Counted from the first letter of the stretch, positions 1,921 to 35,193 are shown. The stretch: 35,193 nt of DNA from a virus (IMGVR_UViG_3300048819_000127:1-35193), one strand, 5' to 3'. Translations and numbers: made by a program. Notes: generated from the letters alone by a model not told the origin.

Positions 1921-1959
1921 GAACGCTTGAAGCGAGTCTCATGTGGCTATCATGGCCAC

Positions 1960-2903
1960 ATGAGCTGGACCATCTACTGCGTGACGCACGTAGCATCTGG
2001 GCGCAGATATATCGGTCAGACCAAGCTTTCGGCCGCTCGTCGCTGGAAGGGGCACGTCTCGGCGGCCAGCCGCGGTCCAAGAAGGACTTACTTTCTTGCC
2101 GCCATCCGAAAGCATGGCGTAGAGGCGTTCTCGCACGAGGTGTTGGATATCTGCGAAACACAGGCCGGCGCCGACGCATCAGAACGACACTGGATAGCCC
2201 ATCACCGCACACTCGAGATGACATATAGCCAGGCGGAGTGGGAGACGGAACCGTGTTTCGGCAGACGCCCGACAGACGCCAGCGCCAATCCGCAGCGAAA
2301 GCGGCGGGCTATGCCGCAGATCCGACTCTCGCCATGCGCATCGCCGCCGCCAACCGAAGGACGAAGGCCCCACTCGTCGCTGCAAGGCTCGCTCGCGAGA
2401 CCATCACCTGTGCGGTGCACGGAGAACTGCAGAAGGCCGAGTGCTACGAGCATCGACGCCAAGGTCGTCCAACCAACTGGGAGTGCCGCGCATGCGCAGC
2501 GGGGCGAGAGTCGCCGCCGCCGCGCCCAGACTCGCCCGAGTGCAAGGCTGCCATCAAGGCGGGCCGCCGCGCGGGGGCCATCGCTAGGGCGGCGGAGCGG
2601 ACGCACTTCGACTGCAAGGTGCACGGCCAGGTCCTGCTCTCGGAGTGCTTCGGTCGGAAGGCGAAGAACGGACTGGTGAAGTATTGCTGCAAGGTTTGCA
2701 ACCTTGCGAAGCAGAAGGCGGACCGTGCGAAGCGTGCGAGGACTGGCGTCGCTGAGATGCTACGCCCGCACTCGCTTTACGGGTGCCCACCAGACTGCAA
2801 CGACCCCGAGTGCCAAGCCGACGAAGCGGTCGACCGATTCAAGGCGCGTCGTGCCCACGCCAGAGACGAGGAGCGCAGCCTAGCCAAGTACGATCGCGGG
2901 TAG
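1960..2903 (+). pseudogene. GIY-YIG homing endonuclease, frameshifted
   Basis: MSWTIYCVTH...RRYIGQTK...RRWKGH...E..WI catalytic domain starts at ATG 1960. Near 2227 the frame breaks where the paralogue at 9318 reads GFNVMPGG; the GxN motif is missing and PGGVGDG continues in the frame of 2238..2903, which has CxxHG...CxxC zinc-finger repeats. Confidence 0.75.
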
Positions 2904-2944: not shown

Positions 2945-3226
2945 ATGGCAAAGTACGCGAACGGAGAGACCGTAGTTTACACGTCGAATTGGGTACCTAC
3001 GGCGGCGTCTTCGGTGGGCGTACCGTACACACAGACGGCGGCGATCCTGTGCACTGGCGCGGGCACGTTGGTGGCGACGATGCTGGGCACGGTGGGGCTT
3101 GATGCGGCGGCGGGCGCGGCCAGTTTGAACATCCCGATGGCGGTGAACCAGGTGCTGCCGCTCTGTGTGACGGGGATCAAAAGCACCAGCACGGGCAGCT
3201 ACGTCGCATTCTATGGCGACGCCTAG
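2945..3226 (+). CDS. Small head spike-base-like protein (resembles RcGTA Rcc01079 family)
   Basis: AILCTGAGTLVATM...QVLPLCVTGIKSTST..YVAFY pattern; start reassigned to ATG 2945, 6 nt after a TACCTT box. Confidence 0.6.
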   Translation: MAKYANGETVVYTSNWVPTAASSVGVPYTQTAAILCTGAGTLVATMLGTVGLDAAAGAASLNIPMAVNQVLPLCVTGIKSTSTGSYVAFYGDA

Positions 3227-3407
3227 GACGCTCTGCCGAGCAGCGTCATGGCTCCTGTTCCTGCCGATCCTCAGTGCATGTGGTGAGACGCTCCGCGGCA
3301 CTGATGCAGGCGAGTGCCCATCCGGATACGTCGAGGTAAAGGGTCGCGATCTCTGCCTGCAGTGCGAGACGCCCGATTGCTCGTACGTCGACGGGGGTGA
3401 GGAGTGA
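3213..3407 (+). CDS. Small Cys-rich lipoprotein
   Basis: Hydrophobic stretch plus LSAC lipobox; TDAG and VDGG motifs; overlaps both neighbouring genes. Confidence 0.55.
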   Translation: MATPRTLCRAASWLLFLPILSACGETLRGTDAGECPSGYVEVKGRDLCLQCETPDCSYVDGGEE

Positions 3408-9317: not shown

Positions 9318-10256
9318 ATGTGGACCATCTACTGCGTGACGCACATCGCATCTGGGCGCCGATATATCGGTCAGACCAAACTTTCGGCCGCTCGTCGCTG
9401 GAAGGGGCACCTGTTCGCGGCGACGTACCGAAAGCACGACGGGAGAAGCCGCTTCGTCAACGCAATTCGATGTTACGGAGCCAAAGCATTTCGCGTCTCG
9501 GTATTGGAGACATGCCTTACTCAGCCCGGCGCGGACGAAGCAGAAATTGCGTGGATAGCGTCCTTCTCGACGACATACGAGATGTTCGGGTTCAACGTCA
9601 TGCCCGGTGGAAGAGGCCGCGTGCGCGACGGCGAGTCACACAATCCTTGGAACGACCCGGCCTTCCGAGCGAAGATGACGTCCCCAGCGATGCGCGCGCG
9701 CCGACTGGCCACCAGGCGAGCGACCATGGCTGAGGACCCGAGCATTAGTGCCGCAGCGAGCGCGGTGTCTAAGGCGAATTGGGCCAACCCATCCATCCGC
9801 AAGCGTATACTCACAAATACCGCAGCCACCAAGGCGCGCCCAGAGGTTCGCGCCCGCCTATCCGCCGCCGCCAAGGCCTGTCACTCCCCGGACTCGCGCG
9901 CTCGTGCGGCTGAACGCCAGCGCGAATTATGGTCAGATCCGGCATTCAAGGCGAAGTCATCGGCGGCCATCCGAGCACACCACGAAAGCGAAGAATACCG
10001 AGAGCGGGCCCGTCGCAACGGCACGGAGCAGTGGAAGAACGCGGAGATCCGAGAGCGCAACGCGGCGGCGATCCGAGAACGGCTCAATTCGCCGCAGGGC
10101 CTTGCGGAACGCGCAGCGAGGAAAGCGCGTCCATGCAAGCGGTGCGGTGGCGAGCGGGTAATCCTACCGAGCGGGATCAATCGATGCAGGCCGTGCCATG
10201 CAGCACGCGAGACAGCCAGGCAGGCAGCGAAGCGCCTGCCCGAGGCCGCGGAGTGA
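9318..10256 (+). CDS. Free-standing GIY-YIG homing endonuclease
   Basis: TIYCVTH..SGRRYIGQT...RRW..H...E..WI...GFN..PGG is intact; W.[DN]P..R helical repeats and a terminal CxxC..CxxC follow; promoter TAGACA-17-TATCAT upstream. Confidence 0.85.
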   Translation: MWTIYCVTHIASGRRYIGQTKLSAARRWKGHLFAATYRKHDGRSRFVNAIRCYGAKAFRVSVLETCLTQPGADEAEIAWIASFSTTYEMFGFNVMPGGRGRVRDGESHNPWNDPAFRAKMTSPAMRARRLATRRATMAEDPSISAAASAVSKANWANPSIRKRILTNTAATKARPEVRARLSAAAKACHSPDSRARAAERQRELWSDPAFKAKSSAAIRAHHESEEYRERARRNGTEQWKNAEIRERNAAAIRERLNSPQGLAERAARKARPCKRCGGERVILPSGINRCRPCHAARETARQAAKRLPEAAE

Positions 10257-22560: not shown

Positions 22561-24402
22561 ATGAACAAGATCACCTTCGGATGGGGCGCAGTCAATTCTC
22601 AACCAGGATCGTTTTCGTATCCGACGCAGACGTATCCTGGCTCGCCAGGCACTCCGTTCGAATGGTCCGGCTCGAGCACTGGCGTGGCTCCTGCGGCGTC
22701 GTACTTCACTCCAAATACGAAGCCACCTGCCGATGTGATGAATTACCTGCTCGCTCAGGTATCGACTGACCTTCTGTATCTCGCTGAGTTCACGTCGCAG
22801 TCGCCCGCTAGCACTACGATTGCGTCAGCGTCGAACGGTGCGTCCCTTCCTACCGGGACGATCCATGTGCAGAGCACGAACGGTTTTGCGAGCTCTGGCA
22901 GCGGTACTACCGCCGTATTTGTGCTCACGTCGGCCGGACCACAACAGGTGACCTATACGGGTATCACCGCAAATACGTTCACCGGATGCTCGGGCGGCAC
23001 GGGCACGATGGCCACGGGCAATGCGGTGGGCGGCACTGACAGTGCTGGCAACTCATGGGGCGCCAGCTTCGTCGGTCCTGGGGGTACTGCGCTCGCATTC
23101 GGAACCCAGCGCGCGTGTGGCGTGGCCGCAGTCGGCGGCGTCGACAACGGCAACGCGTTCTACGGCCAGGGGTACGGAACCGGCTACGGGGCGGAGCTCT
23201 TCGGTGGCGGTGTCGGGGTGGGCGGAGGTGGACTGATCGCCACTGGTGGAGGATCTGCCGGCGTCGGCGTCACTGCTCAGGGGAGCGGTACGGGTGCTGG
23301 AATCACTGCATCTGGAGATAGCCGTGGTACGGGTGTTGGCGGTGCGTTCTTCGCTGGGCAGGGCGGCAACGCTGATGGGCTCACCGCCCAGGGCAACGGT
23401 GGCGGCGCCGGCGGTGCCTTCCTTGGCGGCATCAACGGTCCAGGCATCACCGCCGAGGGAGGCTCCGGTAACTACGCCGGCGTCTTCACCGGGAACAACT
23501 CGAGCGCCATCAGTGCGAACGCGGGAGGCAGCGCGGGCGACGGCATCGACGCGTTAGGAGCGGGGACGGGTGTCGGCGTCTTCGGGCTGGGTGGCTCGTC
23601 AGGCGGCGGAGGAGGCACGAATAACGTCGACGGTGCCGGCGGCTATTTCGCCGGTGGCGGCTCTGGCGCGTTTGGCGCGATCGGCGTCGGCGGGGCGAAC
23701 GGCCCAGGGCTGCAGGGCTTCGGTGGGACGGGTAACTCGGTCGGGGTGTCTGGGCTCGGAACGGGGACCGGGCCTGGCGGCAACTTCACGGGTGGGGCGG
23801 GGGCCGATGCCCCGGGGCTCTTCGGGACGGGCGGCTCCAGCGGAGGGCCGGGGGCAGTGTTCCAGGCGACGGGCTCTTATGCCGGGATGACGGCTACAGG
23901 CGCCGGAGGGGGCGCGGGCGGCACGTTCCAAGGCAATGGGGTGGGCAACGGAATCAACGCCACAGGTGGCTCCGGTGCGGGCTCCGGGGCGGGAGGCGCC
24001 TTCACTGCCGGCACTTCATCGAATGATTCGATCGTAGGCATCGGAGGGCCCATCTACCCGAACTGCTCCGCGCCTACTTCGCCTGTCGCGAACCGTTTAT
24101 ACAAGGACAATATCCCGAAGGCATTTCTGTATGCCGTAGGCACGTCTGGCGCTATATCCACTGACGTAGGAATGAATCTTAGCGTATCTGGCACAAATAG
24201 CACATCAGTGCTACTGGCGTTCAATACGCCTATGGCTAACGCGAACTATGCGGTTATGGCCACGTGCTACCAAACAGGTGTGGGCGGCGCGGCGTGCGGT
24301 CCGTACAACCAGACCGCTTCAGGGTTTGAGGTTGGCGTCGATGGTTTCAACCCGTCAAGCACCTCGTTCACGCTTTCTATCGTAGTCTTCGGGCAACAGT
24401 GA
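22561..24402 (+). CDS. Tail fibre with Gly-rich repeat shaft and C-terminal receptor-binding-like domain
   Basis: KPPADVMNYL baseplate-anchor motif; long G-hydrophobic-x-x-x-G repeats; C-terminal F.TPMANANYAV...TASGF domain. Confidence 0.8.
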   Translation: MNKITFGWGAVNSQPGSFSYPTQTYPGSPGTPFEWSGSSTGVAPAASYFTPNTKPPADVMNYLLAQVSTDLLYLAEFTSQSPASTTIASASNGASLPTGTIHVQSTNGFASSGSGTTAVFVLTSAGPQQVTYTGITANTFTGCSGGTGTMATGNAVGGTDSAGNSWGASFVGPGGTALAFGTQRACGVAAVGGVDNGNAFYGQGYGTGYGAELFGGGVGVGGGGLIATGGGSAGVGVTAQGSGTGAGITASGDSRGTGVGGAFFAGQGGNADGLTAQGNGGGAGGAFLGGINGPGITAEGGSGNYAGVFTGNNSSAISANAGGSAGDGIDALGAGTGVGVFGLGGSSGGGGGTNNVDGAGGYFAGGGSGAFGAIGVGGANGPGLQGFGGTGNSVGVSGLGTGTGPGGNFTGGAGADAPGLFGTGGSSGGPGAVFQATGSYAGMTATGAGGGAGGTFQGNGVGNGINATGGSGAGSGAGGAFTAGTSSNDSIVGIGGPIYPNCSAPTSPVANRLYKDNIPKAFLYAVGTSGAISTDVGMNLSVSGTNSTSVLLAFNTPMANANYAVMATCYQTGVGGAACGPYNQTASGFEVGVDGFNPSSTSFTLSIVVFGQQ

Positions 24403-24405
24403 GCC

Positions 24406-24792
24406 CTACGGGCTAGGCATACACGACAAGGATGCCCCGCAAGACAGATCGGCGACGCAGTTACCCTCAGCCCCGACCGAAGCTGTCGGTTGCGGGAAGT
24501 ACTCCGACCCGTATCCCGGTCCGTACGCAGCGGCGCAGCACGGCTGATCTTTATTTCCACAGGCCTCGCATACGAGGCTTGCCGAGCACGGCACGCCCGC
24601 AGACTGAAGACACGCGTAGAACGCCCCGGTACCCATCACATTCGAAGCGTCTACCTGTATCTGTGCGCAATGGCTACCGATCGTACCCACCGCGTCGACG
24701 TGCTGATCTCCTTCTTGATCAAGAATTGTCGACGTCGCCCCGCTGCAGCCTGAGAGGAACAGTACTGACGCCAGAACGAAGGGGCGCATCAT
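24406..24792 (-). CDS. Cys-rich lipoprotein moron
   Basis: MMRPFVLASVLFLSGC lipobox; CG.KDQPCC...C...L.C....C motif; reverse strand next to the tail fibre. Confidence 0.7.
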   Translation of the reverse strand: MMRPFVLASVLFLSGCSGATSTILDQEGDQHVDAVGTIGSHCAQIQVDASNVMGTGAFYACLQSAGVPCSASLVCEACGNKDQPCCAAAYGPGYGSEYFPQPTASVGAEGNCVADLSCGASLSCMPSP

Positions 24793-24915
24793 GGTGCCAC
24801 CGCCAGGCCTGCATCGTTGCAGACCGCCAGCGCATCCGAGCACCCACCCGTCTACTCCAGTGGCTCCGCCACACGCAGCCAAACCAAGCACAAGCATCGC
24901 AGCAACCGTCTTCAT
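24789..24915 (-). pseudogene. Short lipoprotein gene with a 1-nt frameshift, now fused in frame to the downstream lipoprotein
   Basis: LAAC lipobox; removing one G after VD gives VDGGCSDALAVCNDAGLAVAP* whose stop overlaps the next ATG. Confidence 0.5.
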
Positions 24916-24938
24916 GGTCTCACCCGCCTCTCACTACT

Positions 24939-24966
24939 ACTATAGCCACCTAGACAAGGTTGTCAA
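24939..24966 (-). promoter_or_regulatory. Near-consensus sigma70 promoter for the lipoprotein moron
   Basis: TTGACA-16 nt-TATAGT on the minus strand; inverted repeat GACAA-GG-TTGTC overlaps the -35. Confidence 0.7.
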
Positions 24967-26021
24967 TCCGTCGGGGGCAGGAAGGAAGGGCTGTCCACGT
25001 CGGGGTACATCGACAGCGTGTCGCCGAACCGCGGGAATACGGAGTCAAGGTGCCGAGTGAATCCGGCCCAGTCCTTCGAGATCTTCATCAGCGCCACGAC
25101 GGCGTATAGATGCTCTCGCAGGCGAGGGTGCCCAAGGTCTTCGGTCAGCGACTGGAACAGCTTCGCCCTCGGCTTCCCAGCGTCGTTCTTCGGCGTGACG
25201 CGCTTGAGTTCATCAAGCACTCCGGGGGCAAGTCGGGCATACACGACGTCCTTCGTGTAGTGGGCGATCACCCCTGGACGCTTCACGGAGTCTGGCGTAT
25301 AGGGCCATGCGTTGAGCCGGAAGATCTCTTTATAGAAGTCGGGTGGAAACGTCCTGACCCACTTGCCCAACTCTTTGGCGATAAACTTCTCTAGGATCTT
25401 CGCGAGCGCATCGCGCCCACGATCGGCCTGATGTCCGGTCGCTTCATCAATGAGCGCAACGATTCCAACGCGAACCAGGCCCTTGTAGAGGGTCCTCGCC
25501 GCGTCAGCGAGGCGCCGCTGTCCCGGTAGCAGCGAGTTGGCCCTCTCGGCCTCCATGATGGCTTCGCAGATGAGGGCGAGCAGGTCGGCGTCGTACGCGT
25601 AGGCATTGTTCCCTCCGCGGGTCCGATAAACCAAAGGGGAGCGCAAAGTATCGAATAATTCAGCGGAAATGAACGACGCCAAGCGGGCGTTCGCCAAAAA
25701 TGGCGGGAATCCTCGCAACTCTTGAGGGGAGCCTTGATTTGCGCCCTTTTTCCGAGATCCGAACGCGGCATTGATGCCCGCCACCGTCAATACCCGCTTC
25801 TCATTGTCGAGCACGGCGCAGGGGATGCCGCCAACAGCGAGAACCCCCGAATGGGTCTCCTTCGGTAGGTCCGTGCCCCATCTGGCCATGGCCGCCTTCT
25901 TTGCGACGCTCCTACGCTCCTCGGGGCTCATTGCTTGGGCCCTCGCCAGACCTCCCTTCGATGCGCCCAATGCGGCCATCGCCTGCGCGTGCTTGTTCTT
26001 GCCGTCTTTTTTGCCTGCCAT
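24963..26021 (-). CDS. P63C-domain protein
   Basis: GASKGGLARA..MSPEERR.VAKKAA.ARW, IPCAVL...RVL, VGIVALIDEATG.Q..R, W.RTFP.DFY.EIFRL..W and KLFQ.LT.D.G.P.L motifs; AAAGGA SD before ATG 26021. Confidence 0.9.
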   Translation of the reverse strand: MAGKKDGKNKHAQAMAALGASKGGLARAQAMSPEERRSVAKKAAMARWGTDLPKETHSGVLAVGGIPCAVLDNEKRVLTVAGINAAFGSRKKGANQGSPQELRGFPPFLANARLASFISAELFDTLRSPLVYRTRGGNNAYAYDADLLALICEAIMEAERANSLLPGQRRLADAARTLYKGLVRVGIVALIDEATGHQADRGRDALAKILEKFIAKELGKWVRTFPPDFYKEIFRLNAWPYTPDSVKRPGVIAHYTKDVVYARLAPGVLDELKRVTPKNDAGKPRAKLFQSLTEDLGHPRLREHLYAVVALMKISKDWAGFTRHLDSVFPRFGDTLSMYPDVDSPSFLPPTD

Positions 26022-26098: not shown

Positions 26099-26746
26099 GT
26101 GAGCCTCCCCGTCTCCCACGACCTGCAAGTTACTGTTGGCACGTCTTTTTTTGCGGCCCTCACCATCAGCGCGAGTTCGGGGGCACAGCTAGGCTTGCTC
26201 GGGGCGACCGCGGAGCTCCGGGTGTCGGTCTCGCCGGCAGACCCTCAGCCGCTTGTGGACGTCACGACGACACCAGGCGCGGATGGGGGTCTGCTACTGG
26301 GCGTCACGTTCCCCCCGCTCGGCGGCGTCGCGGTCTCGAACGGGAGCGGGCTCGTCCAGCTCGGAGATCTCCCGCTTGTCACGACCAGCCTGCCGACGCC
26401 CGCACTCTTCGTCGCTGACGTGCCTACGCTTGAGGCGGCGGCCACGGCTGCGTACGTCCTTGGGACGGTCGCGTTTGTGGAGTCGGGGGCTGGCGCCTAC
26501 TACAACTGGAGCCCGAACGACCCGAGCACGCCGAACGGGACCACGATCGTGGCTGGACTCGGCGGATCCGGCAATTGGTTGCAGGCGGGAACGGTCAACA
26601 TCTCCTTCACGCCAGCGGCCACTGCCGCGCTGGTGGGGTACGATATTGCCAGCTGGGTACTGCTGGTCACGTTCGCGGATGGCGAGGTCGTGCCGCTTGT
26701 GGGGGGCATGGTGGTCGTTCTGCCAGAGGAGCCTGTCGCCGCCTAG
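26099..26746 (+). CDS. Tail-fibre attachment/adaptor beta-sandwich protein with inserted domain
   Basis: DL.V..GTSF...L.GATA.LRV...GT..IS.TPA.TA.L...W.L.VT..DG.V..LV.G...V.PE, interrupted by a tailspike-N-terminal-like segment (Y.W.P.D....NG.TIV....G.W). Confidence 0.6.
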   Translation: MSLPVSHDLQVTVGTSFFAALTISASSGAQLGLLGATAELRVSVSPADPQPLVDVTTTPGADGGLLLGVTFPPLGGVAVSNGSGLVQLGDLPLVTTSLPTPALFVADVPTLEAAATAAYVLGTVAFVESGAGAYYNWSPNDPSTPNGTTIVAGLGGSGNWLQAGTVNISFTPAATAALVGYDIASWVLLVTFADGEVVPLVGGMVVVLPEEPVAA

Positions 26747-26765
26747 CGATAGCTATCTTGGGTTC

Positions 26766-27347
26766 ATGAAGATTTCGCGCGCGATCCCCATCGGAATGGT
26801 CTTGATTGCCTGCATCGCAGGCCTCGCGGTCGCTTGCCAGAGCGCGTCGGCGCCCGTGGCTCCCCCGGCACCGGCGAAGGCGACACTCGCTGCCATCAAC
26901 GGCGCGGGCGCGGTCCTGCCGTTCAATCAGATGACCGTGTACGGCGTCATGTCAGGAGACGCCAGCATCCCGGCTGCGCTCCAGTATCAGCTGGTCCCCT
27001 GCGCGACGGGTGATGCCAGCGTGTGCAAGGCGAGCTTCCCGCTGCCGTTGTACACAAGCGGCGAGGTCGACATGTTCGTCGCGGCCCAGCAAGTGGGCGG
27101 AGCAAACGGCGCAGTTGCGAAATACGCGTGTGGGTTCACGAACGCCGATGGCGGGACCAGCTGCAAGGTTTCTCGAGCGTGCGCGGCCACTGAGGCTCTT
27201 TCGGCCGGTCCGTCAGACGCAGGCTACACGGTTGCCGTCACGCAGACGGGTGCAGACGGCGGGTGCAGCGCCTATGTCTCGGTGAGCACGAACAGCAAGG
27301 TGGGCGTCAACTGGAAGTTGGGATCGCAGATCCTGGCGGTCCCGTGA
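26766..27347 (+). CDS. Lipoprotein-signal protein with fibre-tip-like domain
   Basis: MKISR plus hydrophobic stretch ending LAVAC; Ala/Pro linker; Cys-rich beta domain similar to the C-terminus of 27822..29882. Confidence 0.7.
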   Translation: MKISRAIPIGMVLIACIAGLAVACQSASAPVAPPAPAKATLAAINGAGAVLPFNQMTVYGVMSGDASIPAALQYQLVPCATGDASVCKASFPLPLYTSGEVDMFVAAQQVGGANGAVAKYACGFTNADGGTSCKVSRACAATEALSAGPSDAGYTVAVTQTGADGGCSAYVSVSTNSKVGVNWKLGSQILAVP

Positions 27348-27375
27348 ATCTCTAGTCGGCTATCTTAGAGCCGAG

Positions 27376-27840
27376 ATGCCGCAAAACATCCCTGGCCCTG
27401 CCGTTGCGGTCTCTCCCACCGGCCTAAATCTGGTCATGGGACCGATAGGTCCGCCTGGTCCGCAGGGAGCTCGCGGGCCCATCGGAGCCACCGGGGCCTC
27501 GGGGACAGCAACACCGCAAGCGCCGCAGCGCGTCGTGTTTACTGGGTCGACGATCGCGATCACGGCGATCACGAATACGCTGATCATTGTGGACAGCACA
27601 TCAGGTGCGGTCGCGCTGAACTTCACTCCATCTGCCGTCACCGACGGGCTCCAGTATACGGTGAAATGGCGCGCGGGTACGAATCCAGTCACATGGCAGG
27701 CACCTGTAATGGTAGAGGAGATTCCACCAAATCAGGGCACGTATATCGCTGCGAACACGCCGCAGACAATGCCGGGCGTGGGCGATTCGGTCACATATTA
27801 CTACGATGGGACGTTAGGCCTATGGTCACTCGCAGGATAA
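27376..27840 (+). CDS. Collagen-repeat fibre protein
   Basis: Eight Gly-X-Y triplets (GPIGPPGPQGARGPIGATGASGTA) followed by a VDSTSGAV.L...G.SVT..YDG...W domain. Confidence 0.75.
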   Translation: MPQNIPGPAVAVSPTGLNLVMGPIGPPGPQGARGPIGATGASGTATPQAPQRVVFTGSTIAITAITNTLIIVDSTSGAVALNFTPSAVTDGLQYTVKWRAGTNPVTWQAPVMVEEIPPNQGTYIAANTPQTMPGVGDSVTYYYDGTLGLWSLAG

Positions 27841-29882
27841 TCGCCATACTCGCTATCGTAGTGGCGGGGTGCGTTGATACGCGCGCCACGCAAGACGCGA
27901 TCGGTGAATCGCCTTCGACGGCGGCATCATCGTCTCCCGCTCGAGCGACTGCTCCAGTGCCTGCCGTGCCTGCCAAGCCTGTGCACGCCAGTATCATACC
28001 CGTGCAGCCTACGGGCCCCGCAGGGTCGTGCGACGCTGGTGCTGGCAAGGTGTGCGGCACGTATCCTACGTCGATTGGTCTCACTGGATCGCCCTCCGGT
28101 CGGGTCACCGTGCTGGAGGGTAACGGAGACGGTGGCTACCGGTTCGCCGATGCTTCGTTCTACGCGGGACAGATCGACGCCGCGACGGCTTCTCCGCTCC
28201 AAGGCAACGGCACCGCAGCGCATCCGATTGGAGAGATCCTATGCGACGCGGGCGAGTGGCACCTCATGTCCGGAGGCGCTTATGTCTGCGGCAAAGTCTC
28301 GGGCGGATCTACGTACACGGGCGTCTCCCCCATCTACGTGGACGCGAGTTCGTCGTCGATCGGCATCGGCACGGTGAGTCTCGAGGCCGGCGTCAGCGTC
28401 ACCCCGAAGCTCCAGGAGAGTCGTCTCGCACCATGCGCGTCCACGGGCCAGGGCATCTATGAGGGCACCGGAACGATGGCGTGCGGCGCGCTGCCGCTCG
28501 GCACGTCCGCCGCGGTGTCAGGGCAGCTCCCCGTCGCGAGCGGCGGAACGGGCGCAGCCCCCACATGCACGGCCGGCCAAGATGTCGTCGCAACCTCGGG
28601 GACGACGTTCGGCTGCGTGTCGAACTCGGGCGACTTCACCTGCTCCTCGGTGACGCCCGGGCTTTGCACCGTCTCGCAGCTTCAGGGTGGCGAGATCATC
28701 GCTGGCGCGACTTCTGGCACGCTCACGTGTGCGGCGGGGGCTACCGCGTGCGGGGAGACGCAGGCGAGCACCAGCGGCGCGACGGGGGCGAATCTCGTGC
28801 TGACGCCGCAGGCGTCCACGAACGCCAACGGCACGTCCGGCAACGTGGTTGTGGCTCTTACTGCGCCCACGGGGTCAGGCTCAGAAGCAGCATTCGTTGT
28901 GCGTCGCGGCTCGGCCAACCAGGTGAGTATCGGACCGTACCCTGGTTCAGGTTCCTCGTACGCCGGAATATGGCTTCAGCCTAGTGGCACGGCGCCGACC
29001 GGGAGCAACGTCGTACTCCTCTCCGACGGATCATCTACGATCCTCAATGCGCCATCAGCTAGCGCATCGATGTATTTCCGACTCGGCGCGTCCACGGCAG
29101 GAGGCGCGACCGTATCTAGTGCAGGCTGGCAGTTCCTGACAAGCAACGCTACGGACTTCGGCGGCGGTGTCGGTGTCCTGGGAATAACTAACGCCACCAC
29201 TGTGCCATCCTCAAACACCAGCGGCGCGATAATCTACGCCAGTGGCGGCGCCTTCCTCGTCTATCCCAGCGGCGTTACCACCCCACAGTTCGGCGTGTCT
29301 TCTGGTTCGACGGCGGTGGCCAATTACCTCGCCCAGTCCGGCACCGTACCCTCGACATGCACCGCCGGCAATTACTGCACGGGAGGCAGCACCGGCGATC
29401 TCTACGGGCGCGGCGGCGGGTCAACTGTTACCGAGACTCACATCGCGCCGCAGGGCGACGCGTTCAGCTATCTCGACTACGGCACCATCCTGCGCACCGG
29501 AGCGATCGCCGCGTCCGGAGGCACCGGCCTCGTCACGTGGCCCGTCCCGATCGGATACGTGTGCTGGATGCACATTGTCGCGGTGGGCAACTACTCAAGC
29601 GGCACGGCAGGCACGGCGTCGGACATCTATACCGTCTATCGAAACAGCGCGGGTACAGTGTCGAAGGTGGGTATTCTCGGTAGCGCCGCAAACCCGATTC
29701 AGAACGTGGGTACATCTGGCGCGGTCGCAGACACGCACTTCAACACGGCGTCGTCGGGTCCGATTGGCACTGGGTCCACCGCGGGCTCGGCTGGCAGCGT
29801 GCAGATCACGGTCACCAACCAGGCGAGTTCGACGGCGAACGCGTTCGAGGTCTTCGTCGACGCGAAGTGCAGCTCGGGATGA
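27822..29882 (+). CDS. Long fibre-like protein with N-terminal lipoprotein signal peptide
   Basis: MVTRRIIAILAIVVAGC lipobox; GQLPVASGGTG and SGD.T....G..TV..LQG fibre motifs; DFGGGVGVLGI.NATTVPSSN segment; Gly/Ser/Thr-rich. Confidence 0.75.
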   Translation: MVTRRIIAILAIVVAGCVDTRATQDAIGESPSTAASSSPARATAPVPAVPAKPVHASIIPVQPTGPAGSCDAGAGKVCGTYPTSIGLTGSPSGRVTVLEGNGDGGYRFADASFYAGQIDAATASPLQGNGTAAHPIGEILCDAGEWHLMSGGAYVCGKVSGGSTYTGVSPIYVDASSSSIGIGTVSLEAGVSVTPKLQESRLAPCASTGQGIYEGTGTMACGALPLGTSAAVSGQLPVASGGTGAAPTCTAGQDVVATSGTTFGCVSNSGDFTCSSVTPGLCTVSQLQGGEIIAGATSGTLTCAAGATACGETQASTSGATGANLVLTPQASTNANGTSGNVVVALTAPTGSGSEAAFVVRRGSANQVSIGPYPGSGSSYAGIWLQPSGTAPTGSNVVLLSDGSSTILNAPSASASMYFRLGASTAGGATVSSAGWQFLTSNATDFGGGVGVLGITNATTVPSSNTSGAIIYASGGAFLVYPSGVTTPQFGVSSGSTAVANYLAQSGTVPSTCTAGNYCTGGSTGDLYGRGGGSTVTETHIAPQGDAFSYLDYGTILRTGAIAASGGTGLVTWPVPIGYVCWMHIVAVGNYSSGTAGTASDIYTVYRNSAGTVSKVGILGSAANPIQNVGTSGAVADTHFNTASSGPIGTGSTAGSAGSVQITVTNQASSTANAFEVFVDAKCSSG

Positions 29883-30007
29883 TCCGCACCGCCCTCTTAG
29901 CCATCGCCGTGTGCTGCGCCATGGCGTACTCGCGCGCGCAGCCTGACGTCTTTCACGCGGCCTGGGGGCTCGTCGGCGCGTGCGCCGTGAAGTGGTGCCT
30001 GCCATGA
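29879..30007 (+). CDS. Small hydrophobic peptide (42 aa, below ORF-track cutoff)
   Basis: ATGA overlaps at both ends; MIRTALLAIAVCCAMAYS...AAWGLVGACAVKWCLP. Confidence 0.5.
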   Translation: MIRTALLAIAVCCAMAYSRAQPDVFHAAWGLVGACAVKWCLP

Positions 30008-30657
30008 GCGTCGACGACGAAGGGCCCATCACTCCCAGGGCACCACCGGATCCGAGGGTCGAGATGAGCGACACTACGAATGGCAATGGACACGTAGCAC
30101 ACGGCGAACCGGAGCCCGATTACGACGCCATGTCTCCGGAGCATTTGCTGAAGCTCGCCACGGTATGCGCGAGACAGGCCGCGAACAGCGCGATGAGCGC
30201 TGACGCCAAGGCCTCCGAGGCGCTGCGTGCCGTCGACGGCGTGAGGCTTGAGCTGACTGCGGTCGGCACTCGACTCGCGTCGGACATCGGCGATATCGCC
30301 CGAGCGGTCGGAGCGAAGCGCACGTATTCGGGACAGGTCCACGTCTCGATTCCCCCGTCGGTATCGATCCGCACCTCGCCCAGCAAGACCGGCTCGCAGA
30401 TCGTTGTGGATCCTGACGAGCTTCGCCGGTTCGAGCGGATGTTTGCGGACAAGGAAGCCGAGGAGCGAGGCGCGCGCGAGGCGCTTGAGGAGCAGCGTCA
30501 GGAGTACGAGCGCCAAGAGCAGGCTCGCGCTCGTGCTGCGGCCGAGGCTCGTACGGTCGCCGAAGAGCGACGGAAAAACATCACGATCATGATCTCAATC
30601 GCGGGTACGCTTCTTACCGCATTCAGCGTCGCCGTTGGCTACCTCGCTCACCACTGA
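30004..30657 (+). CDS. Coiled-coil protein with C-terminal transmembrane helix
   Basis: E/R/A-rich helix followed by ITIMISIAGTLLTAFSVAVGYL; sits where lysis modules often begin. Confidence 0.65.
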   Translation: MSVDDEGPITPRAPPDPRVEMSDTTNGNGHVAHGEPEPDYDAMSPEHLLKLATVCARQAANSAMSADAKASEALRAVDGVRLELTAVGTRLASDIGDIARAVGAKRTYSGQVHVSIPPSVSIRTSPSKTGSQIVVDPDELRRFERMFADKEAEERGAREALEEQRQEYERQEQARARAAAEARTVAEERRKNITIMISIAGTLLTAFSVAVGYLAHH

Positions 30658-30830
30658 AGGACCAAACACAGTAACCAACCCCGCCCTAAAGGGCGGAGCT
30701 TTCAGGAGAGCGACGTGGAACACGTAGCGCAACCCGTTTCCTGCTTCGACCGGGCCCCTTACAGGCACTCCCGTCCACAGGCAGACACCAGGGATTCCCA
30801 GGCGTTTCGTATCTCTGTTTCAGAATCTTC
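30651..30830 (-). ncRNA. Predicted omega/reRNA of TnpB with flank-derived guide
   Basis: Established architecture: scaffold overlaps the tnpB 3' end and right end; guide would start TGTGTTTGGTCCTTCAG. The 5' boundary is approximate. Confidence 0.6.
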
Positions 30831-31965
30831 GCAGCGTTGAGGTCAGCATGGTCGCAGTAGCCACACGAGGTACAGCGGAAGACGGCCTGCGACCGACGCG
30901 ACTTGGCGTCGACGCAGCCGCATGCGCTGCACGTCTGGCTCGAGTAGGCGGCGGGCACCTCGACAAGGGAGCCTCCCGACCACGCGAGCTTGTAGCGGAG
31001 CATGTCCGCGAAGCGGGACCATCCCGCGTCCGCGATGCTGCGCCCCAGATTGCTGCGGATCATTCCCGCAACGTTCAGTTTCTCCAGCACAACGACGCCG
31101 TGGCTCTTGGCGAGTTGTGTCGACTGGACGTGCAGGAAGTGGTCGCGCTGGCGCCTCACCTTTCGGTGGATGCGGGACACGCGAAGCTTGGCCTTCTCTC
31201 TGTTCTTGGAACCTTTCTTCCGTCGACTGACGGTGCGTTGTGCGTGAGCGAGTCTCGTGAGCGCTCGTTCGAGGTTGCGAGGGTTCGGGATCCGTTTGCC
31301 GTCGGAGGTCGCGCCGAAGTTCGCGATGCCTCGGTCGATCGCGACGACGGGACCTTCGCGCAGAGTGGGCTCGGCGAGGTTCAGCTCGCAGACGATCGAG
31401 ACGAACCACTGGTCGCCATCTCGCTTGAGGGTGCACGTCTTCGGCTTCCCTTCGAGCGGTCGGTGCATCACTGTTCGGAGCGTGCCCAGCTTGGGGAAGC
31501 GGACGTCCGAGCCGTCGACTCTCCACGCCTTCGGGTGCGGCTCGCAGAAGCCGAGAGAGTCGCGGCCCCTCCGCTTCCACCGAGGGGCGCGAGCCAACTT
31601 GGCGAAGCAGCGTTGCCACGCCCGATCCAACTCCACCAAGAGCTGCGCGCACACGTTGCGCGGGACGTCGGCCAGCCATGGCAGAGCGGCGCGGAGCTCG
31701 GTCAGCTCGTTGATCTGATCGAAGGCCGTGGGGTAGACGCGCTCGCCCTTGGGCCTGGCGTACCCGAGCTTCCGTTGCTCGAGCCCCAGGTTCCAGAGGA
31801 AGCGGAGGGCGGATTCCCACTGGCCGAACCTCGCGCCCTGCGCCGGCGTCGGGTAGACGCGGTAACGGAAGGCCTTGCTCGTCAACACGCTTGCAGCGTA
31901 GCACAACCAACCCAGACGGGGCTTCCTCCCCGTCCTAAAGGACGGGGTTTCCGCCCCGAAGAACA
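30671..31965 (-). mobile_element. IS200/IS605-family non-autonomous element (IS1341-like, tnpB only)
   Basis: Subterminal hairpins at 30679-30698 and 31928-31947; right end TTAC with guide AAAG; left target (T)TCAT with guide GAAA, both matching the IS608 guide/cleavage pairing scheme; no tnpA. Confidence 0.9.
30686..31888 (-). CDS. tnpB: RNA-guided endonuclease TnpB
   Basis: KAFRYRVYPT HTH start; RuvC residues in AIDRG, VLEKL and ADLNAA; zinc finger CSAC/CTSC; GTG 31888 is 6 nt after TACGCT. Confidence 0.95.
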   Translation of the reverse strand: MLTSKAFRYRVYPTPAQGARFGQWESALRFLWNLGLEQRKLGYARPKGERVYPTAFDQINELTELRAALPWLADVPRNVCAQLLVELDRAWQRCFAKLARAPRWKRRGRDSLGFCEPHPKAWRVDGSDVRFPKLGTLRTVMHRPLEGKPKTCTLKRDGDQWFVSIVCELNLAEPTLREGPVVAIDRGIANFGATSDGKRIPNPRNLERALTRLAHAQRTVSRRKKGSKNREKAKLRVSRIHRKVRRQRDHFLHVQSTQLAKSHGVVVLEKLNVAGMIRSNLGRSIADAGWSRFADMLRYKLAWSGGSLVEVPAAYSSQTCSACGCVDAKSRRSQAVFRCTSCGYCDHADLNAAKILKQRYETPGNPWCLPVDGSACKGPGRSRKRVALRVPRRSPESSAL

Positions 31966-32724
31966 ATGAATCGTCTCCTCCCGTTCCTGTCGTTCCTGGC
32001 GCTCTTCGCCATCGTCTTCCTGTACTGTTCCGCGGCCCATGCGCAGGGGACGCCGCTTCCTGCCGCGCCTCAGATCTCGACCGGGGCGATGGTGATGCTG
32101 GTCCTCTCGACGCTGCTCGGTATCGCTACGACGGCTCAGCAGACGGGGAAGCTGTTTGGGCAGTTCACGATCCCGACTTCGGCGGTCGTGGTGGTCAATC
32201 TCGTCGTACCGTTTCTCGGCGGGCTCGTGCAGTCGCTCTCATCGATGACCTTCTCGTCTGCGGCCGTCGTCTACGCGATCTTCGCTGGGCTCACGAACCT
32301 CATCGCAGGCAGCGCAGCGGGAATCGCCGTGCACGCGCACATCGTCGTGCCGGCCAAGGTCTCGGCGCTCCGCGCCTCTAAGGTCGCGGCGGCTGCGATC
32401 GCGGCGGGCGCCGTCGTCACGAGCTTGCTCGCTTGCACGCCTGCCCAGCTCGCGGCGTGGGACACGGCCATCAAGAGCGGCGGGACCATCGCGGTCCAGG
32501 CGTCCAACTTCGCGTGCACGATCGCCACGGAGGTTGACCCTAGCGGGGCTACGGCGATCTGTCAGGAGATCGATTCGGGCGGAGCGCTCCTCGGTCCAGT
32601 TCTGACCGTCGTAGAAGACGCGCCGAGCGTACTCAACCTCGTCGCGAAGACGAGCGCGTCGATGCAGACGCTGGTGCATGCAAACCTCGCCGTGAAGCTC
32701 GCGGCAGAGAAGGTCGGGCACTGA
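31966..32724 (+). CDS. Multi-pass membrane protein (possibly holin-like) with internal lipobox-like motif
   Basis: Signal-like N-terminus ending AHA; three to four hydrophobic helices; LLAC motif before a soluble tail. Confidence 0.6.
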   Translation: MNRLLPFLSFLALFAIVFLYCSAAHAQGTPLPAAPQISTGAMVMLVLSTLLGIATTAQQTGKLFGQFTIPTSAVVVVNLVVPFLGGLVQSLSSMTFSSAAVVYAIFAGLTNLIAGSAAGIAVHAHIVVPAKVSALRASKVAAAAIAAGAVVTSLLACTPAQLAAWDTAIKSGGTIAVQASNFACTIATEVDPSGATAICQEIDSGGALLGPVLTVVEDAPSVLNLVAKTSASMQTLVHANLAVKLAAEKVGH

Positions 32725-32725
32725 A

Positions 32726-33475
32726 ATGCAACCGTACAAATTCGTCTTCGTAGATCAGTCGACCCTGCAGGACGCTGCGCATGGGGGTCCGCTCACGACC
32801 GAGATCCTCACAACGATCGGCAGTGCAGTGGCTAAGCAGATGAACTGTGAGGTTCACGCGGAGTGGGGATGCTCCGTCGCGGGTCCTGTCTCGTTTCGCG
32901 TTGGTTCGGCCGACGGGAAAGATGTGCAAGCGGACGAGATTGGCCTGTTTATCCTCGACAGTCTGCCTGCGGCACCCGGCGCGGCAGCTTACCATGATCG
33001 CCTTAGCAATGGGGCTCCGGTGGGCTACTTCGCTCGCGAGGACTACACGAGCCACACGTCCGGATCGAACAGCCTCTCGGTGGATATCTCGCACGAGTGC
33101 ATCGAGACGATTGGCGACCCCGGCGCGAATCGATGGGCGGACCTCGCGAGCGGCACGCAAGACGCGGCCCTCGAGCTCTGCGACCCCGTGCAAAACGTCG
33201 TCTACGAGATCGACGGGATCGCGGTGTCGGACTTCGTTCTTCAGTCGTACTTCGATCCTGGCGCGGCTGGTCCGTTCGATCACCTCGGCAAGTGCCCCGC
33301 TGGCGGAGACTACTCTGGCGGGTATCTGATCGTGCGCACAGAAGACCAGGCGTCGACCGACGAGCAGCCGGGAAAGCGTGGGACCAAGATCCTTGGCTCA
33401 CCGCGTGCGACGCAGAAGGCTGCTCACGCTAGCTCTCGACGAAGTCGGCGCACGCTCGGCTTGGTGACATCTTGA
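32726..33475 (+). CDS. Putative zincin-like metalloprotein (HExxE)
   Basis: AYH...SHECIETIGDP...ELCDPV...VSDFV...YF pattern; basic C-terminal tail. Confidence 0.65.
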   Translation: MQPYKFVFVDQSTLQDAAHGGPLTTEILTTIGSAVAKQMNCEVHAEWGCSVAGPVSFRVGSADGKDVQADEIGLFILDSLPAAPGAAAYHDRLSNGAPVGYFAREDYTSHTSGSNSLSVDISHECIETIGDPGANRWADLASGTQDAALELCDPVQNVVYEIDGIAVSDFVLQSYFDPGAAGPFDHLGKCPAGGDYSGGYLIVRTEDQASTDEQPGKRGTKILGSPRATQKAAHASSRRSRRTLGLVTS

Positions 33476-33735
33476 AGGTCTTTCTGGCGTTCGCACTGTT
33501 CTGCGGGTTGGTCGCGTGCGGTACCCACCTCACCGCGACAACCACGCAGAAGGTCGTCAGCATCCGCCGCTCGGCTGAGTTTCAACTACAAGACTGCTCG
33601 GGGGACGGGGGTGCCTGCAAGCCGAGCCAGGTGCGCGCGCTCGCCGCATCTATCGACTGCGCGGCCGCTAGCATCCTCAGCGACGGCAAGCAGCCCGTCG
33701 ATGCGGGTCCGAACTGCCCGAAGGTCTCGCCGTAA
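33472..33735 (+). CDS. Small Cys-rich lipoprotein
   Basis: LVAC lipobox; GDGG and VDAG motifs; TTGA overlap with upstream gene. Confidence 0.65.
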   Translation: MKVFLAFALFCGLVACGTHLTATTTQKVVSIRRSAEFQLQDCSGDGGACKPSQVRALAASIDCAAASILSDGKQPVDAGPNCPKVSP

Positions 33736-34513: not shown

Positions 34514-35193
34514 ATGGTCCGCGTCTACCGGTATCGGATCTATCCGACGCGAGCCCAAGACGTTGCGCTCCGGGAGACGCTCTACCGTCTGCGCGAGCTG
34601 TACAACGCCGCGCTCCAGCACCGACGCGACGCGTACCGCAAGTCGGGCGCTACCGTCTCGGCGTACGACCAGATGCGAGAGCTTGCCGGCGTTCGCGAAG
34701 TTCGCCCCGAGTACGCCAGCATCCACACCCATCTCTTGCAGGACGCCATCACTCGGCTCGACCGGGCTTACCGCGCGTTCTTTCGTCGGGTCAAAGCTGG
34801 CGAAACGCCCGGCTTCCCTCGCTTCAAGGGCCGTGGCCGCTACCGCACCTTCACGTTCAAGGACGCCGCGAACCACAACGGCGTCCGTCTCCTGGCAGGC
34901 GGCAAGCGGGTCAAGCTTGCCGGCATCGGCAACGTCAAGGTCAAGCTCCACCGCCCCGTTGAGGGGCGCATCAAGCAGGCCTCCGTGTCGCTCGACGGGG
35001 ATGGTCACTGGTACATCGCCTTCGCGTGCGCCGACGTTCCCGCGCGCCCGCTCCCCCCGCTCGACACCAGCGTCGGGATCGACGTGGGTATCACGACATT
35101 CGCCGCGCTCAGCGATGGACCACCGGTCGACAACCCTCGTCCCTACGAAACCGCGCAGCGCTCTCTCGCTACGGCGCAACGTCGCGTGTCTCG
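34514..35193 (+). CDS. tnpB: Second TnpB, truncated by the window edge (absent from the ORF track)
   Basis: MVRVYRYRIYPT...LYNAAL..R..AY...AFFRRVKAGETPGFPRFKGRGRY...KLHRPVEGRIK...WYI...VGIDVGITTFAALSDG; RuvC-I Asp is present. Confidence 0.95.
   Translation, partial: MVRVYRYRIYPTRAQDVALRETLYRLRELYNAALQHRRDAYRKSGATVSAYDQMRELAGVREVRPEYASIHTHLLQDAITRLDRAYRAFFRRVKAGETPGFPRFKGRGRYRTFTFKDAANHNGVRLLAGGKRVKLAGIGNVKVKLHRPVEGRIKQASVSLDGDGHWYIAFACADVPARPLPPLDTSVGIDVGITTFAALSDGPPVDNPRPYETAQRSLATAQRRVS

What the first reader, a model, noticed from the sequence alone, without database searches (positions are those of the whole stretch)
26099..29882. Phage fibre module whose fibre-like proteins carry lipoprotein signal peptides
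Seen: four genes (fibre adaptor, 26766, collagen fibre, 27822) follow the baseplate and tail fibre. Two begin with type II signal peptides (LAVAC, VVAGC) and Ala/Pro linkers, yet 27822 has fibre motifs (LPVASGGTG, SGD..TV..LQG). Both share a C-terminal pattern (FPLP...G..G...FTNADG vs WPVP...G..G...YRNSAG) and are Cys-rich. Established: tailed-phage fibres normally fold and assemble in the cytoplasm without signal peptides. Inference: these appendages may be exported, lipidated and disulfide-bonded in the envelope, then either picked up at lysis through the cytoplasmic adaptor/collagen pair or displayed on the infected cell. This is my best candidate for an undescribed system.
Basis: partly seen in the sequence, partly recalled or inferred. 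Interest (0 to 1): 0.8.

Follow-up and report, generated by a model that had tools for sequence, protein, structure and literature searches.

The report
Phage fibres made as lipoproteins
An uncultured contractile-tailed phage puts bacterial lipoprotein export signals on a predicted three-stranded tail-fibre protein and on a stand-alone fibre tip, so these parts likely fold outside the cytoplasm and would be clipped free to join the virus particle only at lysis, which is not how tailed phages are thought to be built.

Summary
Observation confirmed. In a myovirus late operon, 26766 (193 aa) and 27822 (686 aa) start with lipoprotein signals, judged by a lipobox rule; SignalP was not available. 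27822 is a fibre: a predicted intertwined trimer (0.95 vs best control 0.00) with a tip fold closest to phage tail proteins. 26766 is that tip domain alone. 40 of 149 homologues carry a lipobox (controls average 0.2-0.3), and these are richer in Cys. In 28 of 42, a conserved H-[RK]-[VL]-G-type motif follows a variable linker; the window's own copy is degenerate. A signal-less relative shares 134 of 139 core residues but none of the nine Cys in the aligned stretch. Another fuses the collagen-anchor homologue to the core. A second phage keeps most of the gene order. Best reading (0.5): the fibre is exported, lipid-tethered and disulfide-folded, cut at the motif, and docked at lysis on the cytoplasmic adaptor/collagen pair. 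Main rival (0.3): a host-surface adhesin or decoy. Virion location, cleavage and host are untested. My ten literature searches found no such route. The scan has noted signal-peptide fibres on other DNA many times (164 notes hold the words); none held the lipoprotein-linker-cleavage words.

The parts
22561..24402 (+). Gly-rich, signal-less fibre-like gene directly after the baseplate genes; likely the ordinary baseplate fibre (context)
   Evidence: Position; no PHROG or Pfam hit; weak likeness to the L004 gene in the same slot (E 0.007)
26099..26746 (+). Signal-less adaptor-like beta-sandwich protein (215 aa); role as fibre adaptor inferred
   Evidence: phrog_1084 E 3e-5; homologue P0194 hits PF23926 LtfC-like at E 0.0036, below the cut-off; 6 further homologues, no signal peptide by eye
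26766..26837 (+). Type II (lipoprotein) signal peptide of 26766, ending LAVA-C24 (C16 is an alternative lipobox Cys)
   Evidence: Sequence; kept in all 7 cluster members
26766..27347 (+). Predicted lipoprotein: Ala/Pro linker plus one fibre-tip beta-sandwich domain, 6 Cys in the mature part
   Evidence: Tip profile 13.5 bits vs shuffle max 10.3; nearest ESM Atlas clusters viral, scores 0.85-0.86, lead only
27376..27840 (+). Signal-less collagen anchor/short fibre: N-terminal strand, short Gly-X-Y run, beta domain
   Evidence: Pfam Collagen E 8e-4, below the cut-off; tail-fibre PHROGs; 45% identical over 91 aa to the N-terminus of fusion P0046, E 1e-11
27822..27872 (+). Type II signal peptide of 27822, ending VVAG-C17
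   Evidence: kept in allele P0187
27873..27974 (+). Ala/Pro/Ser/Thr-rich linker (residues 18-51), variable in length across the family
   Evidence: Alignment A1; the family motif lies 3-63 residues after the lipid Cys
27975..27989 (+). KPVHA: degenerate counterpart of the family's H-[RK]-[VL]-G motif; candidate release site before S57
   Evidence: Aligns with the HRVG-S region of the L004 fibre; does not itself match the motif pattern
28614..29318 (+). Fibre core, residues 265-499: predicted intertwined beta trimer; Cys303/Cys310 pair
   Evidence: AF2 block pLDDT 71-94 over residues 275-484; trimer 0.95 vs 0.00; Cys columns
29460..29879 (+). C-terminal tip beta-sandwich, residues ~547-686
   Evidence: VIA Z 8.5 to T4 gp9 (rmsd 3.2, 111 aligned), 7.8 to Kp9 gp42 (4.2, 115), 7.7 to an Acinetobacter tailspike (3.2, 104)
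29879..30008 (+). 42-aa hydrophobic peptide gene directly after the fibre; a like peptide follows the L004 fibre (by eye)
30004..30657 (+). Conserved downstream gene with a C-terminal hydrophobic segment; marks the start of the lysis-like block
   Evidence: 36% identical to L004 5864-6526

Best explanation
27822 is a predicted trimeric phage fibre that begins with a lipoprotein signal, so it is likely exported, lipid-anchored and disulfide-folded in the host envelope, would be cut free at the end of its linker, and would dock at lysis on the signal-less collagen anchor (27376) and adaptor (26099) carried by the particle. Shown by the sequence or by calls: late-operon position, lipobox, family-wide pairing of signal and Cys, linker-end motif in relatives, anchor-plus-core fusion in P0046. 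Predicted: trimer and tip fold. Inferred: Sec export, Lgt/LspA processing, disulfides, the second cut, docking. The lipid anchor would park fibres at the envelope until lysis. 26766 is the same tip domain alone on a lipid anchor; it may be an exported fibre cap, or stay on the cell as a receptor decoy.
For: (1) Sits between baseplate/fibre genes and a lysis-like block on the late strand. The sigma-70 scan found no site on + ahead of either lipoprotein gene, whereas the antisense lipoprotein 24406-24915 has an 11/12 site. (2) Most of the order is kept in a second phage, L004: fibre-like gene, small anchor-type gene, lipobox fibre, peptide, 30004 homologue. (3) Trimer of residues 265-499: 0.95, best of 3 controls 0.00, runs agree in at least 94% of contacts, pLDDT at least 91. 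The mark was reached by 20 of 30 solved homo-pairs and 1 of 23 monomers; these counts hold only roughly for 3 copies and my own alignment. (4) The top seven VIA matches of the tip are all phage tail proteins; BFVD gave 52 hits at E<=1e-3, the named ones largely fibre, collagen or YadA-like. (5) P0046 has no signal and fuses a 27376 homologue and an L004 small-gene homologue (residues 47-151, iE 5e-59 in an iterated profile) to the core. The N-terminus of the L004 small gene matches four other signal-less relatives. So the piece that signal-less fibres carry at the N-terminus is a separate gene where the fibre has a lipobox (2 of 2 loci seen). (6) P0033 has no signal and 2 Cys, shares 134 of 139 residues with 27822 (314-452), and has Cys at none of the 9 Cys positions in the aligned 147-481. 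(7) Cys 1.60 vs 0.59 per 100 aa (medians, 40 vs 109, p 2e-8); columns 303 and 310 each hold Cys in 17 of 52 signal-bearing vs 4 of 96 signal-less rows; neither is corrected for kinship. (8) Motif in 28 of 42 lipobox proteins, shuffle mean 3.0, max 10 of 1000; 11 of 109 signal-less (pattern chosen by eye on the same set). The type I signal homologue P0145 begins to align (residue 26) just behind the motif of lipobox P0054 (residue 38), so both would give a like mature start (one pair). (9) Alleles keep N-terminus and tip and swap the middle (P0187, P0188), as receptor-binding fibres do (own knowledge).
Against: No virion, proteome or cultured relative (no match). The window's own linker end (KPVHA) fails the motif pattern, as do 13 other lipobox proteins of the 42; 26766 has no clear motif by eye. 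No protease is identified. The phage already has a signal-less fibre-like gene (22561), and 27376 could be a complete short fibre. Fibre modules shuffle freely: the lipobox label needs 31 changes on the core tree, shuffled mean 35.9, so a fusion is weak proof of contact. A second type I/type II pair (P0172 vs P0079) gave no alignment at the start. Even Cys counts are barely enriched (29 of 40 vs 63 of 109). Gene context was seen for only 1 of the lipobox relatives, so some could be host genes. A lone lipidated tip (26766) fits a surface role better.
Confidence: 0.5

Rival explanations
1. The two lipoproteins stay anchored in the envelope of the infected or lysogenic cell as fibre-derived adhesins or decoys: they mask the phage receptor, block superinfection or receptor binding by progeny, or glue the cell to neighbours. 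The motif would then be a sorting or trimer-start signal.
For: A lipid anchor by default keeps a protein in the membrane (established). Exclusion lipoproteins lie inside structural gene clusters of mEp phages (PMC11893012, passages). Bacteria display phage-like trimeric fibres with signal peptides (Bdellovibrio MAT, PMC10769870, passages), and Bd2133 is the top Foldseek PDB hit (E 1.2e-4, but TM 0.15). 26766 is only a tip on a tether. The window's motif is degenerate.
Against: Known exclusion lipoproteins are small and not fibres (own knowledge). No separate promoter was found. The split-versus-fused pattern with the anchor gene and type I signal homologues with no anchor are not expected for a tethered protein.
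Confidence: 0.3
2. Exported and cut free, but never fixed to the particle: a soluble trimer released at lysis as a decoy, lectin or matrix-binding helper.
For: Explains the linker-end motif and the type I signal members without needing docking. One lipobox relative carries an SGNH esterase (P0050).
Against: Does not explain the anchor gene's adjacency and its fusion in P0046. Most members show no enzyme domain.
Confidence: 0.12
3. The signals are unused: translation starts downstream, or a frameshift from 27376 makes an ordinary cytoplasmic anchor-fibre fusion.
For: 27822 overlaps 27376 in the -1 frame and is open from 27666. One gene caller starts it at residue 77 (P0009). The fusion exists in P0046.
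Against: 40 of 149 diverged relatives keep n-, h- and lipobox regions, and Cys enrichment follows the signal. I saw no slippery heptamer in the overlap by eye. In L004 the two genes are separated by a stop and 42 nt.
Confidence: 0.05

Closest known systems
Tail fibres and tailspikes of tailed phages (T4 gp9 C-domain 1qex, Klebsiella Kp9 gp42 7xy1, Acinetobacter tailspikes 6e1r/5w5p/6c72; T5 LtfC-like adaptors, PF23926)
   Same: Late tail-module position, predicted intertwined beta trimer, tip beta-sandwich (Z 6.5-8.5), adaptor and collagen neighbours, mosaic alleles.
   Different: Those are made without signal peptides and assemble in the cytoplasm (own knowledge; PMC6199706 notes that phage DGR target proteins lack signal peptides, passage). 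Here there is a lipobox, a linker and paired Cys, and the anchor is a separate gene.
Bdellovibrio MAT (mosaic adhesive trimer) fibres, PMC10769870 (passages read)
   Same: Signal peptide, phage-like beta-helical trimer, exchangeable tips, a disulfide in one tip; top Foldseek PDB hit; the core aligns weakly to Bd3182 (Z 4.5-4.7).
   Different: MATs are chromosomal predator adhesins with a conserved ~130-aa beta domain behind the signal, and 13 of 21 end in S74; the word lipoprotein does not occur in the paper's main text. Here: phage late genes, lipobox plus low-complexity linker, no Pfam S74 hit.
Type V pilins of Bacteroidia (FimA/Mfa1), PMC13655056 (passages)
   Same: The logic proposed here: a lipoprotein precursor is cut by a protease at a conserved site and then joins a filament.
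   Different: Different fold, strand-exchange polymer, host genes, known protease (Arg-gingipain). Here the cut is only inferred, and the conserved residue before it is Gly.
Phage exclusion lipoproteins and o-spanins (mEp Lpp, PMC11893012; phiCbK spanins, PMC3556154; passages; T5 Llp and Cor recalled)
   Same: Phage-encoded lipobox proteins, some inside the structural cluster.
   Different: Small, not built from fibre domains; no NCBIfam, Pfam or PHROG match to them here.

Membership tests
Phage tail fibre/spike | Encoded in the tail module of a tailed phage | tested here: met
   PHROG map of the window; like order in L004
Phage tail fibre/spike | Elongated homotrimer with a distal tip domain | tested here: met
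   Predicted only: trimer 0.95 vs 0.00; tip Z 8.5/7.8/7.7 to phage tail proteins. 26766 has the tip only
Phage tail fibre/spike | N-terminal virion-docking domain and no export signal | tested here: not met
   Lipobox and linker instead; the anchor-like piece is the separate gene 27376
Phage tail fibre/spike | Present on the virion and binds the host | not testable with these tools
   No cultured relative
Bacterial-type lipoprotein (Sec/SPII) | Basic n-region, hydrophobic h-region, lipobox Cys | tested here: met
   Rule-based; SignalP not available
Bacterial-type lipoprotein (Sec/SPII) | Lipidation by Lgt and cleavage by LspA | not testable with these tools
   Needs labelling or globomycin
Bdellovibrio MAT fibres | Conserved ~130-aa beta domain directly after the signal peptide | tested here: not met
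   A low-complexity linker of variable length follows the lipobox; feature from PMC10769870
Bdellovibrio MAT fibres | Beta-helical trimer with an exchangeable tip | tested here: inconclusive
   Foldseek E 1.2e-4 but TM 0.15; Z 4.5-4.7 to Bd3182; no PDB sequence match to MATs
Bdellovibrio MAT fibres | Chromosomal, displayed on the bacterial surface | tested here: not met
   The gene lies in a virus record's late operon; surface display itself is not testable
Type V pilin | Lipoprotein precursor with a conserved protease site after the N-terminal region | tested here: inconclusive
   Motif in 28 of 42, degenerate in the window; no cleavage data
Type V pilin | Two transthyretin-like domains and a C-terminal donor strand (recalled) | tested here: inconclusive
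   Not among the listed fold matches; the model is a beta trimer plus tip instead
Superinfection-exclusion lipoprotein (Llp/Cor/Lpp) | Small lipoprotein whose expression blocks infection | not testable with these tools
   No family match; needs a plating test

The most novel reading that the evidence does not exclude
A two-compartment route of virion assembly: the phage ships its receptor-binding fibres through the host lipoprotein pathway, parks them on a lipid tether while they trimerise and form disulfides, has them cut at H-[RK]-[VL]-G by an envelope protease, and clicks them onto a cytoplasm-built collagen/adaptor socket only when the cell bursts. Swapping the N-terminus switches the same fibre core between the cytoplasmic and the exported route.
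Probability: 0.45. Interest if true: 0.9.

Novelty: new variant of a known kind. Interest (0 to 1): 0.74.

Why it matters
Tailed-phage particles are taken to be finished in the cytoplasm, and lack of a signal peptide is used to tell phage binding proteins from bacterial surface proteins (PMC6199706, passage). A fibre family that occurs with and without a lipoprotein signal, with a nearly identical core and with Cys gained only in the signal-bearing form, breaks that rule. It also gives a ready natural pair (27822 vs P0033) for testing whether fibres can mature in the envelope and join at lysis. If true, phages could use oxidative folding and envelope modification for host recognition, and fibres parked at the envelope could not bind receptors or trigger tails early. 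It would also offer a path between phage fibres and bacterial adhesins such as MAT. If instead the proteins stay on the cell, they are a new kind of fibre-derived surface lipoprotein of phages.

Tried and rejected
BLASTP of 26766 vs 27822: nothing; 26766 vs the lone tip gene of L053: E 0.23. Single-sequence AF2 of 27822: pLDDT 36, unusable. Pfam, PHROG and NCBIfam: no hit for either lipoprotein. Searches for relatives' DNA mostly failed: viral contigs, metagenome contigs (35, 37), GTDB genomes (36; the 6 pattern hits did not score with the core profile). Only L004 was recovered (1 of 4 hits; again), so context rests on two phages. Cultured phages: no match for P0008, the L004 fibre or P0033; the capsid is at most about 30% identical among the 15 listed of 816 records, all under 60%. 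Host not found: TnpB hits in plasmids are 35-42% identical and scattered. My impression that the D-A-G-rich linkers resemble Polyangia (Myxococcota) lipoproteins is recalled and untested; the myxobacterial-virus preprint 10.64898/2026.09.14.751636 has no 'signal peptide' or 'lipoprotein' in its main text (passages; supplements not seen). One metatranscriptome holds short exact contigs over 26802-27132 and 27370-27559 but also elsewhere, at low depth; it cannot show transcription. PDB sequence search with alignment A3 gave only a Streptomyces hyaluronidase (E 1.5e-4). ESM Atlas hits were under 0.9, leads only. The fold of the core alone was barely tested by VIA (the tip filled the lists). A planned systematic test of mature starts in type I versus type II members did not run because the script machine was lost; two pairs were compared instead, one for and one blank. 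One origin of the lipobox form is not supported (starred branches force at least 13 changes), but several 'signal-less' rows are probably truncated gene calls (P0048 is one) and modules recombine. Literature: ten searches of the open-access library listed no paper on exported or lipidated tail fibres; most hits were seen as listings only, and subscription papers are not covered. PMC8143477 (passages) had nothing relevant.
Full report
Setting. The window is a whole 35,193-nt virus record (G000, about 35% complete; GC 63%). It holds the late operon of a contractile-tailed phage: major head (phrog_264), sheath (phrog_205), tape measure, baseplate hub and wedges, then a Gly-rich gene at 22561, two antisense genes, the four genes of the finding, and a lysis-like block (my reading; no family hits) with a TnpB insertion. 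The same proteins occur on a 96,748-nt contig. The host was not determined.

The observation. The ORFs, lipoboxes (C24 in 26766, C17 in 27822), linkers and motifs are as described. SignalP was not available, so I used a lipobox rule with controls. A search of 1.84 billion representatives gave 240 homologues of 27822 at E<=0.001, of which the best 150 were listed. Leaving out the window's own truncated call, 40 of 149 pass the rule, against 0.28 and 0.22 on average in two controls. This is probably a lower bound: P0081, P0110 and P0161 have a lipobox by eye, and some rows are truncated calls. About six more look like type I signals by eye among 11 flagged. 26766 has only near-identical relatives, all 7 with the signal.

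What the proteins are. With an alignment of 48 rows, residues 265-686 of 27822 fold at mean pLDDT 71, with block means of 71-94 over residues 275-484. Three copies of residues 265-499 give an intertwined trimer: 0.95 against a best control of 0.00, contacts agreeing in at least 94%, pLDDT at least 91. The mark was reached by 20 of 30 solved homo-pairs and 1 of 23 monomers, which holds only roughly here. The C-terminal domain matches T4 gp9 (Z 8.5, rmsd 3.2, 111 aligned), Kp9 fibre gp42 (7.8, 4.2, 115) and Acinetobacter tailspike tips; these are middling scores, but the top seven are all phage tail proteins. Foldseek's best PDB hit is the Bdellovibrio MAT fibre Bd2133 (E 1.2e-4, TM 0.15). A tip profile made without the window's proteins hits both lipoproteins above 500 shuffles each, so 26766 is signal, linker and a lone tip. 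Lone, signal-less tip genes follow fibre genes in L053 and L066, and one more hit is in the short locus L121. 27376 is a signal-less collagen protein; 26099 is a signal-less adaptor-like protein.

Signal-bearing and signal-less forms of one fibre. Lipobox members have more Cys (median 1.60 vs 0.59 per 100 aa) and more D-[AG]-G triplets (0.49 vs 0.00; not corrected for kinship). Columns 303 and 310 each hold Cys in 17 of 52 signal-bearing and 4 of 96 signal-less rows. The nearest relative, P0033, has no signal, shares 134 of 139 residues with 27822 over 314-452, and matches none of its nine Cys in the aligned region. On a tree of 148 core domains the lipobox label is scattered (31 changes, shuffled mean 35.9, 9 of 500 shuffles as low), and the window's core groups with three signal-less rows at SH-aLRT 99. 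As an outside control I took 120 of about 190 IMG/VR stretches with a common fibre-end motif. None of the 100 frames that hit the core profile passes the lipobox rule; only 55 of them, by my count of the table, have their 5' end inside the locus. One (L019, a Mu-like myovirus by my reading) has a type I signal by eye. So the lipobox is a trait of one group of these fibres, not of fibres in general.

The anchor is split off where the lipobox is present. P0046 has no signal and is a fusion: a 27376 homologue (45% over 91 aa), then the core. The one other locus I could fetch, L004 (IMGVR_UViG_3300031234_000026, GC 65%), has a small signal-less gene directly before a lipobox fibre. That gene's N-terminus matches the N-termini of four signal-less relatives and its C-domain matches P0046 residues 47-151. 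The two genes after the fibre also match the window. I saw no counterpart of 26099 or 26766 between the L004 fibre-like gene and its small gene. P0046 and the adaptor homologue P0194 both come from a 14,036-nt ENA contig, perhaps the same one.

A candidate release site. In 28 of 42 lipobox proteins (40 homologues, L004, the window) a motif of the form H-[RK]-[VL]-G lies 3-63 residues after the lipid Cys. Shuffles give 3.0 (max 10 of 1000), and 11 of 109 signal-less N-termini match (pattern chosen by eye on this set). Likeness between members resumes right behind it, in 10 of the 28 with a G-P-x-G-type segment like the one near the start of 15 of the 109 signal-less proteins and of 27376 (the printed 16 includes 27376). 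The type I member P0145 starts aligning just behind the motif of P0054; a second pair showed nothing. The window's 27822 has only KPVHA at this place, and 26766 has no clear motif.

Mechanism. Most likely (0.5) the fibre is exported, lipid-tethered and oxidatively folded, released at the linker end, and docked at lysis on the 27376/26099 socket. Position, signals, Cys pattern, motif and fusion are shown; trimer and fold are predicted; export, cleavage and docking are inferred. The main rival (0.3) keeps both proteins on the cell as adhesins or receptor decoys, which fits 26766 best. A soluble released form (0.12) and unused signals (0.05) are less likely. I put export itself at about 0.9.

Comparison. 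It works like a tail fibre in build and place, like a MAT fibre in being an exported phage-type trimer (PMC10769870, passages), and, if the cut is real, like a type V pilin in its processing (PMC13655056, passages). It fails a defining feature of ordinary fibres (a leaderless docking N-terminus) and of MATs (the conserved domain after the signal; chromosomal location). Ten literature searches found no description of exported or lipidated tail fibres (open-access library only, mostly listings).

Earlier notes of this scan. 164 notes in at least 164 genomes hold the words phage, tail fibre, signal peptide, export, disulfide. They include a split fibre with a cytoplasmic anchor (e1-5345735); one search also showed a crassvirus fibre lipoprotein (e1-5843658) and a lipid-anchored mini fibre (e1-5840441). 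None matched this sequence or the lipobox-linker-cleavage words. They are unchecked and not counted as support.

Verdict. A real and conserved feature: a new variant of the phage fibre module, which would be a new assembly route if the virion step holds. Interest 0.74.

Noticed in passing
window 24406-24915 (-), promoter-like site 24966-24939 (-): Antisense Cys-rich lipoprotein gene (LAA-C) with its own 11/12 sigma-70-type site: moron-like, unlike the two in-operon lipoproteins.
   Followed up: partly
window 24963-26021 (-): P63C-domain gene (PF10546, phrog_2384). Relatives' longer adaptor calls (P0012, P0016) read from sequence near 24915-24970 straight into 26080, so this gene is absent there: a variable insertion.
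   Followed up: partly
window 3213-3407, 33472-33735, 31966-32724: More lipobox-like ORFs: one in the head region (LSA-C), one in the lysis block (LVA-C, o-spanin candidate), and an internal LLA-C in the holin-like gene.
   Followed up: no
window 32726-33475; L004 4344-5492 (-): Unrelated peptidase-like genes in the same slot of the lysis-like block: an HExxE metallopeptidase-like one here, a papain-like one in L004 (by eye; no Pfam hit). Candidates for a release protease or wall hydrolase.
   Followed up: partly
L003 13665-15680: In an unrelated phage, a 671-aa gene right after the baseplate genes starts with a hydrophobic, signal-like segment; three RCC1-like repeat genes follow (by eye).
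   Followed up: no
L019 775-2160 (-): Mu-like myovirus (GC 67%) whose fibre gene after the baseplate has a clear type I signal peptide by eye.
   Followed up: partly
window 1927-2679, 9318-10256, 30686-31966, 34514-35191: Two GIY-YIG homing endonuclease genes (the first appears frameshifted after about residue 100) and two TnpB-type transposase genes in the late region.
   Followed up: no
27822 and lipobox homologues: D-A-G / D-G-G triplets are enriched in the signal-bearing members; possibly a host envelope modification signal. The likeness to Polyangia lipoproteins is recalled, not tested.
   Followed up: partly
L082, L091, L092, L118: Short (~135 aa) genes that end in the same fibre-end motif and share a conserved N-terminus; unexplained.
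   Followed up: no
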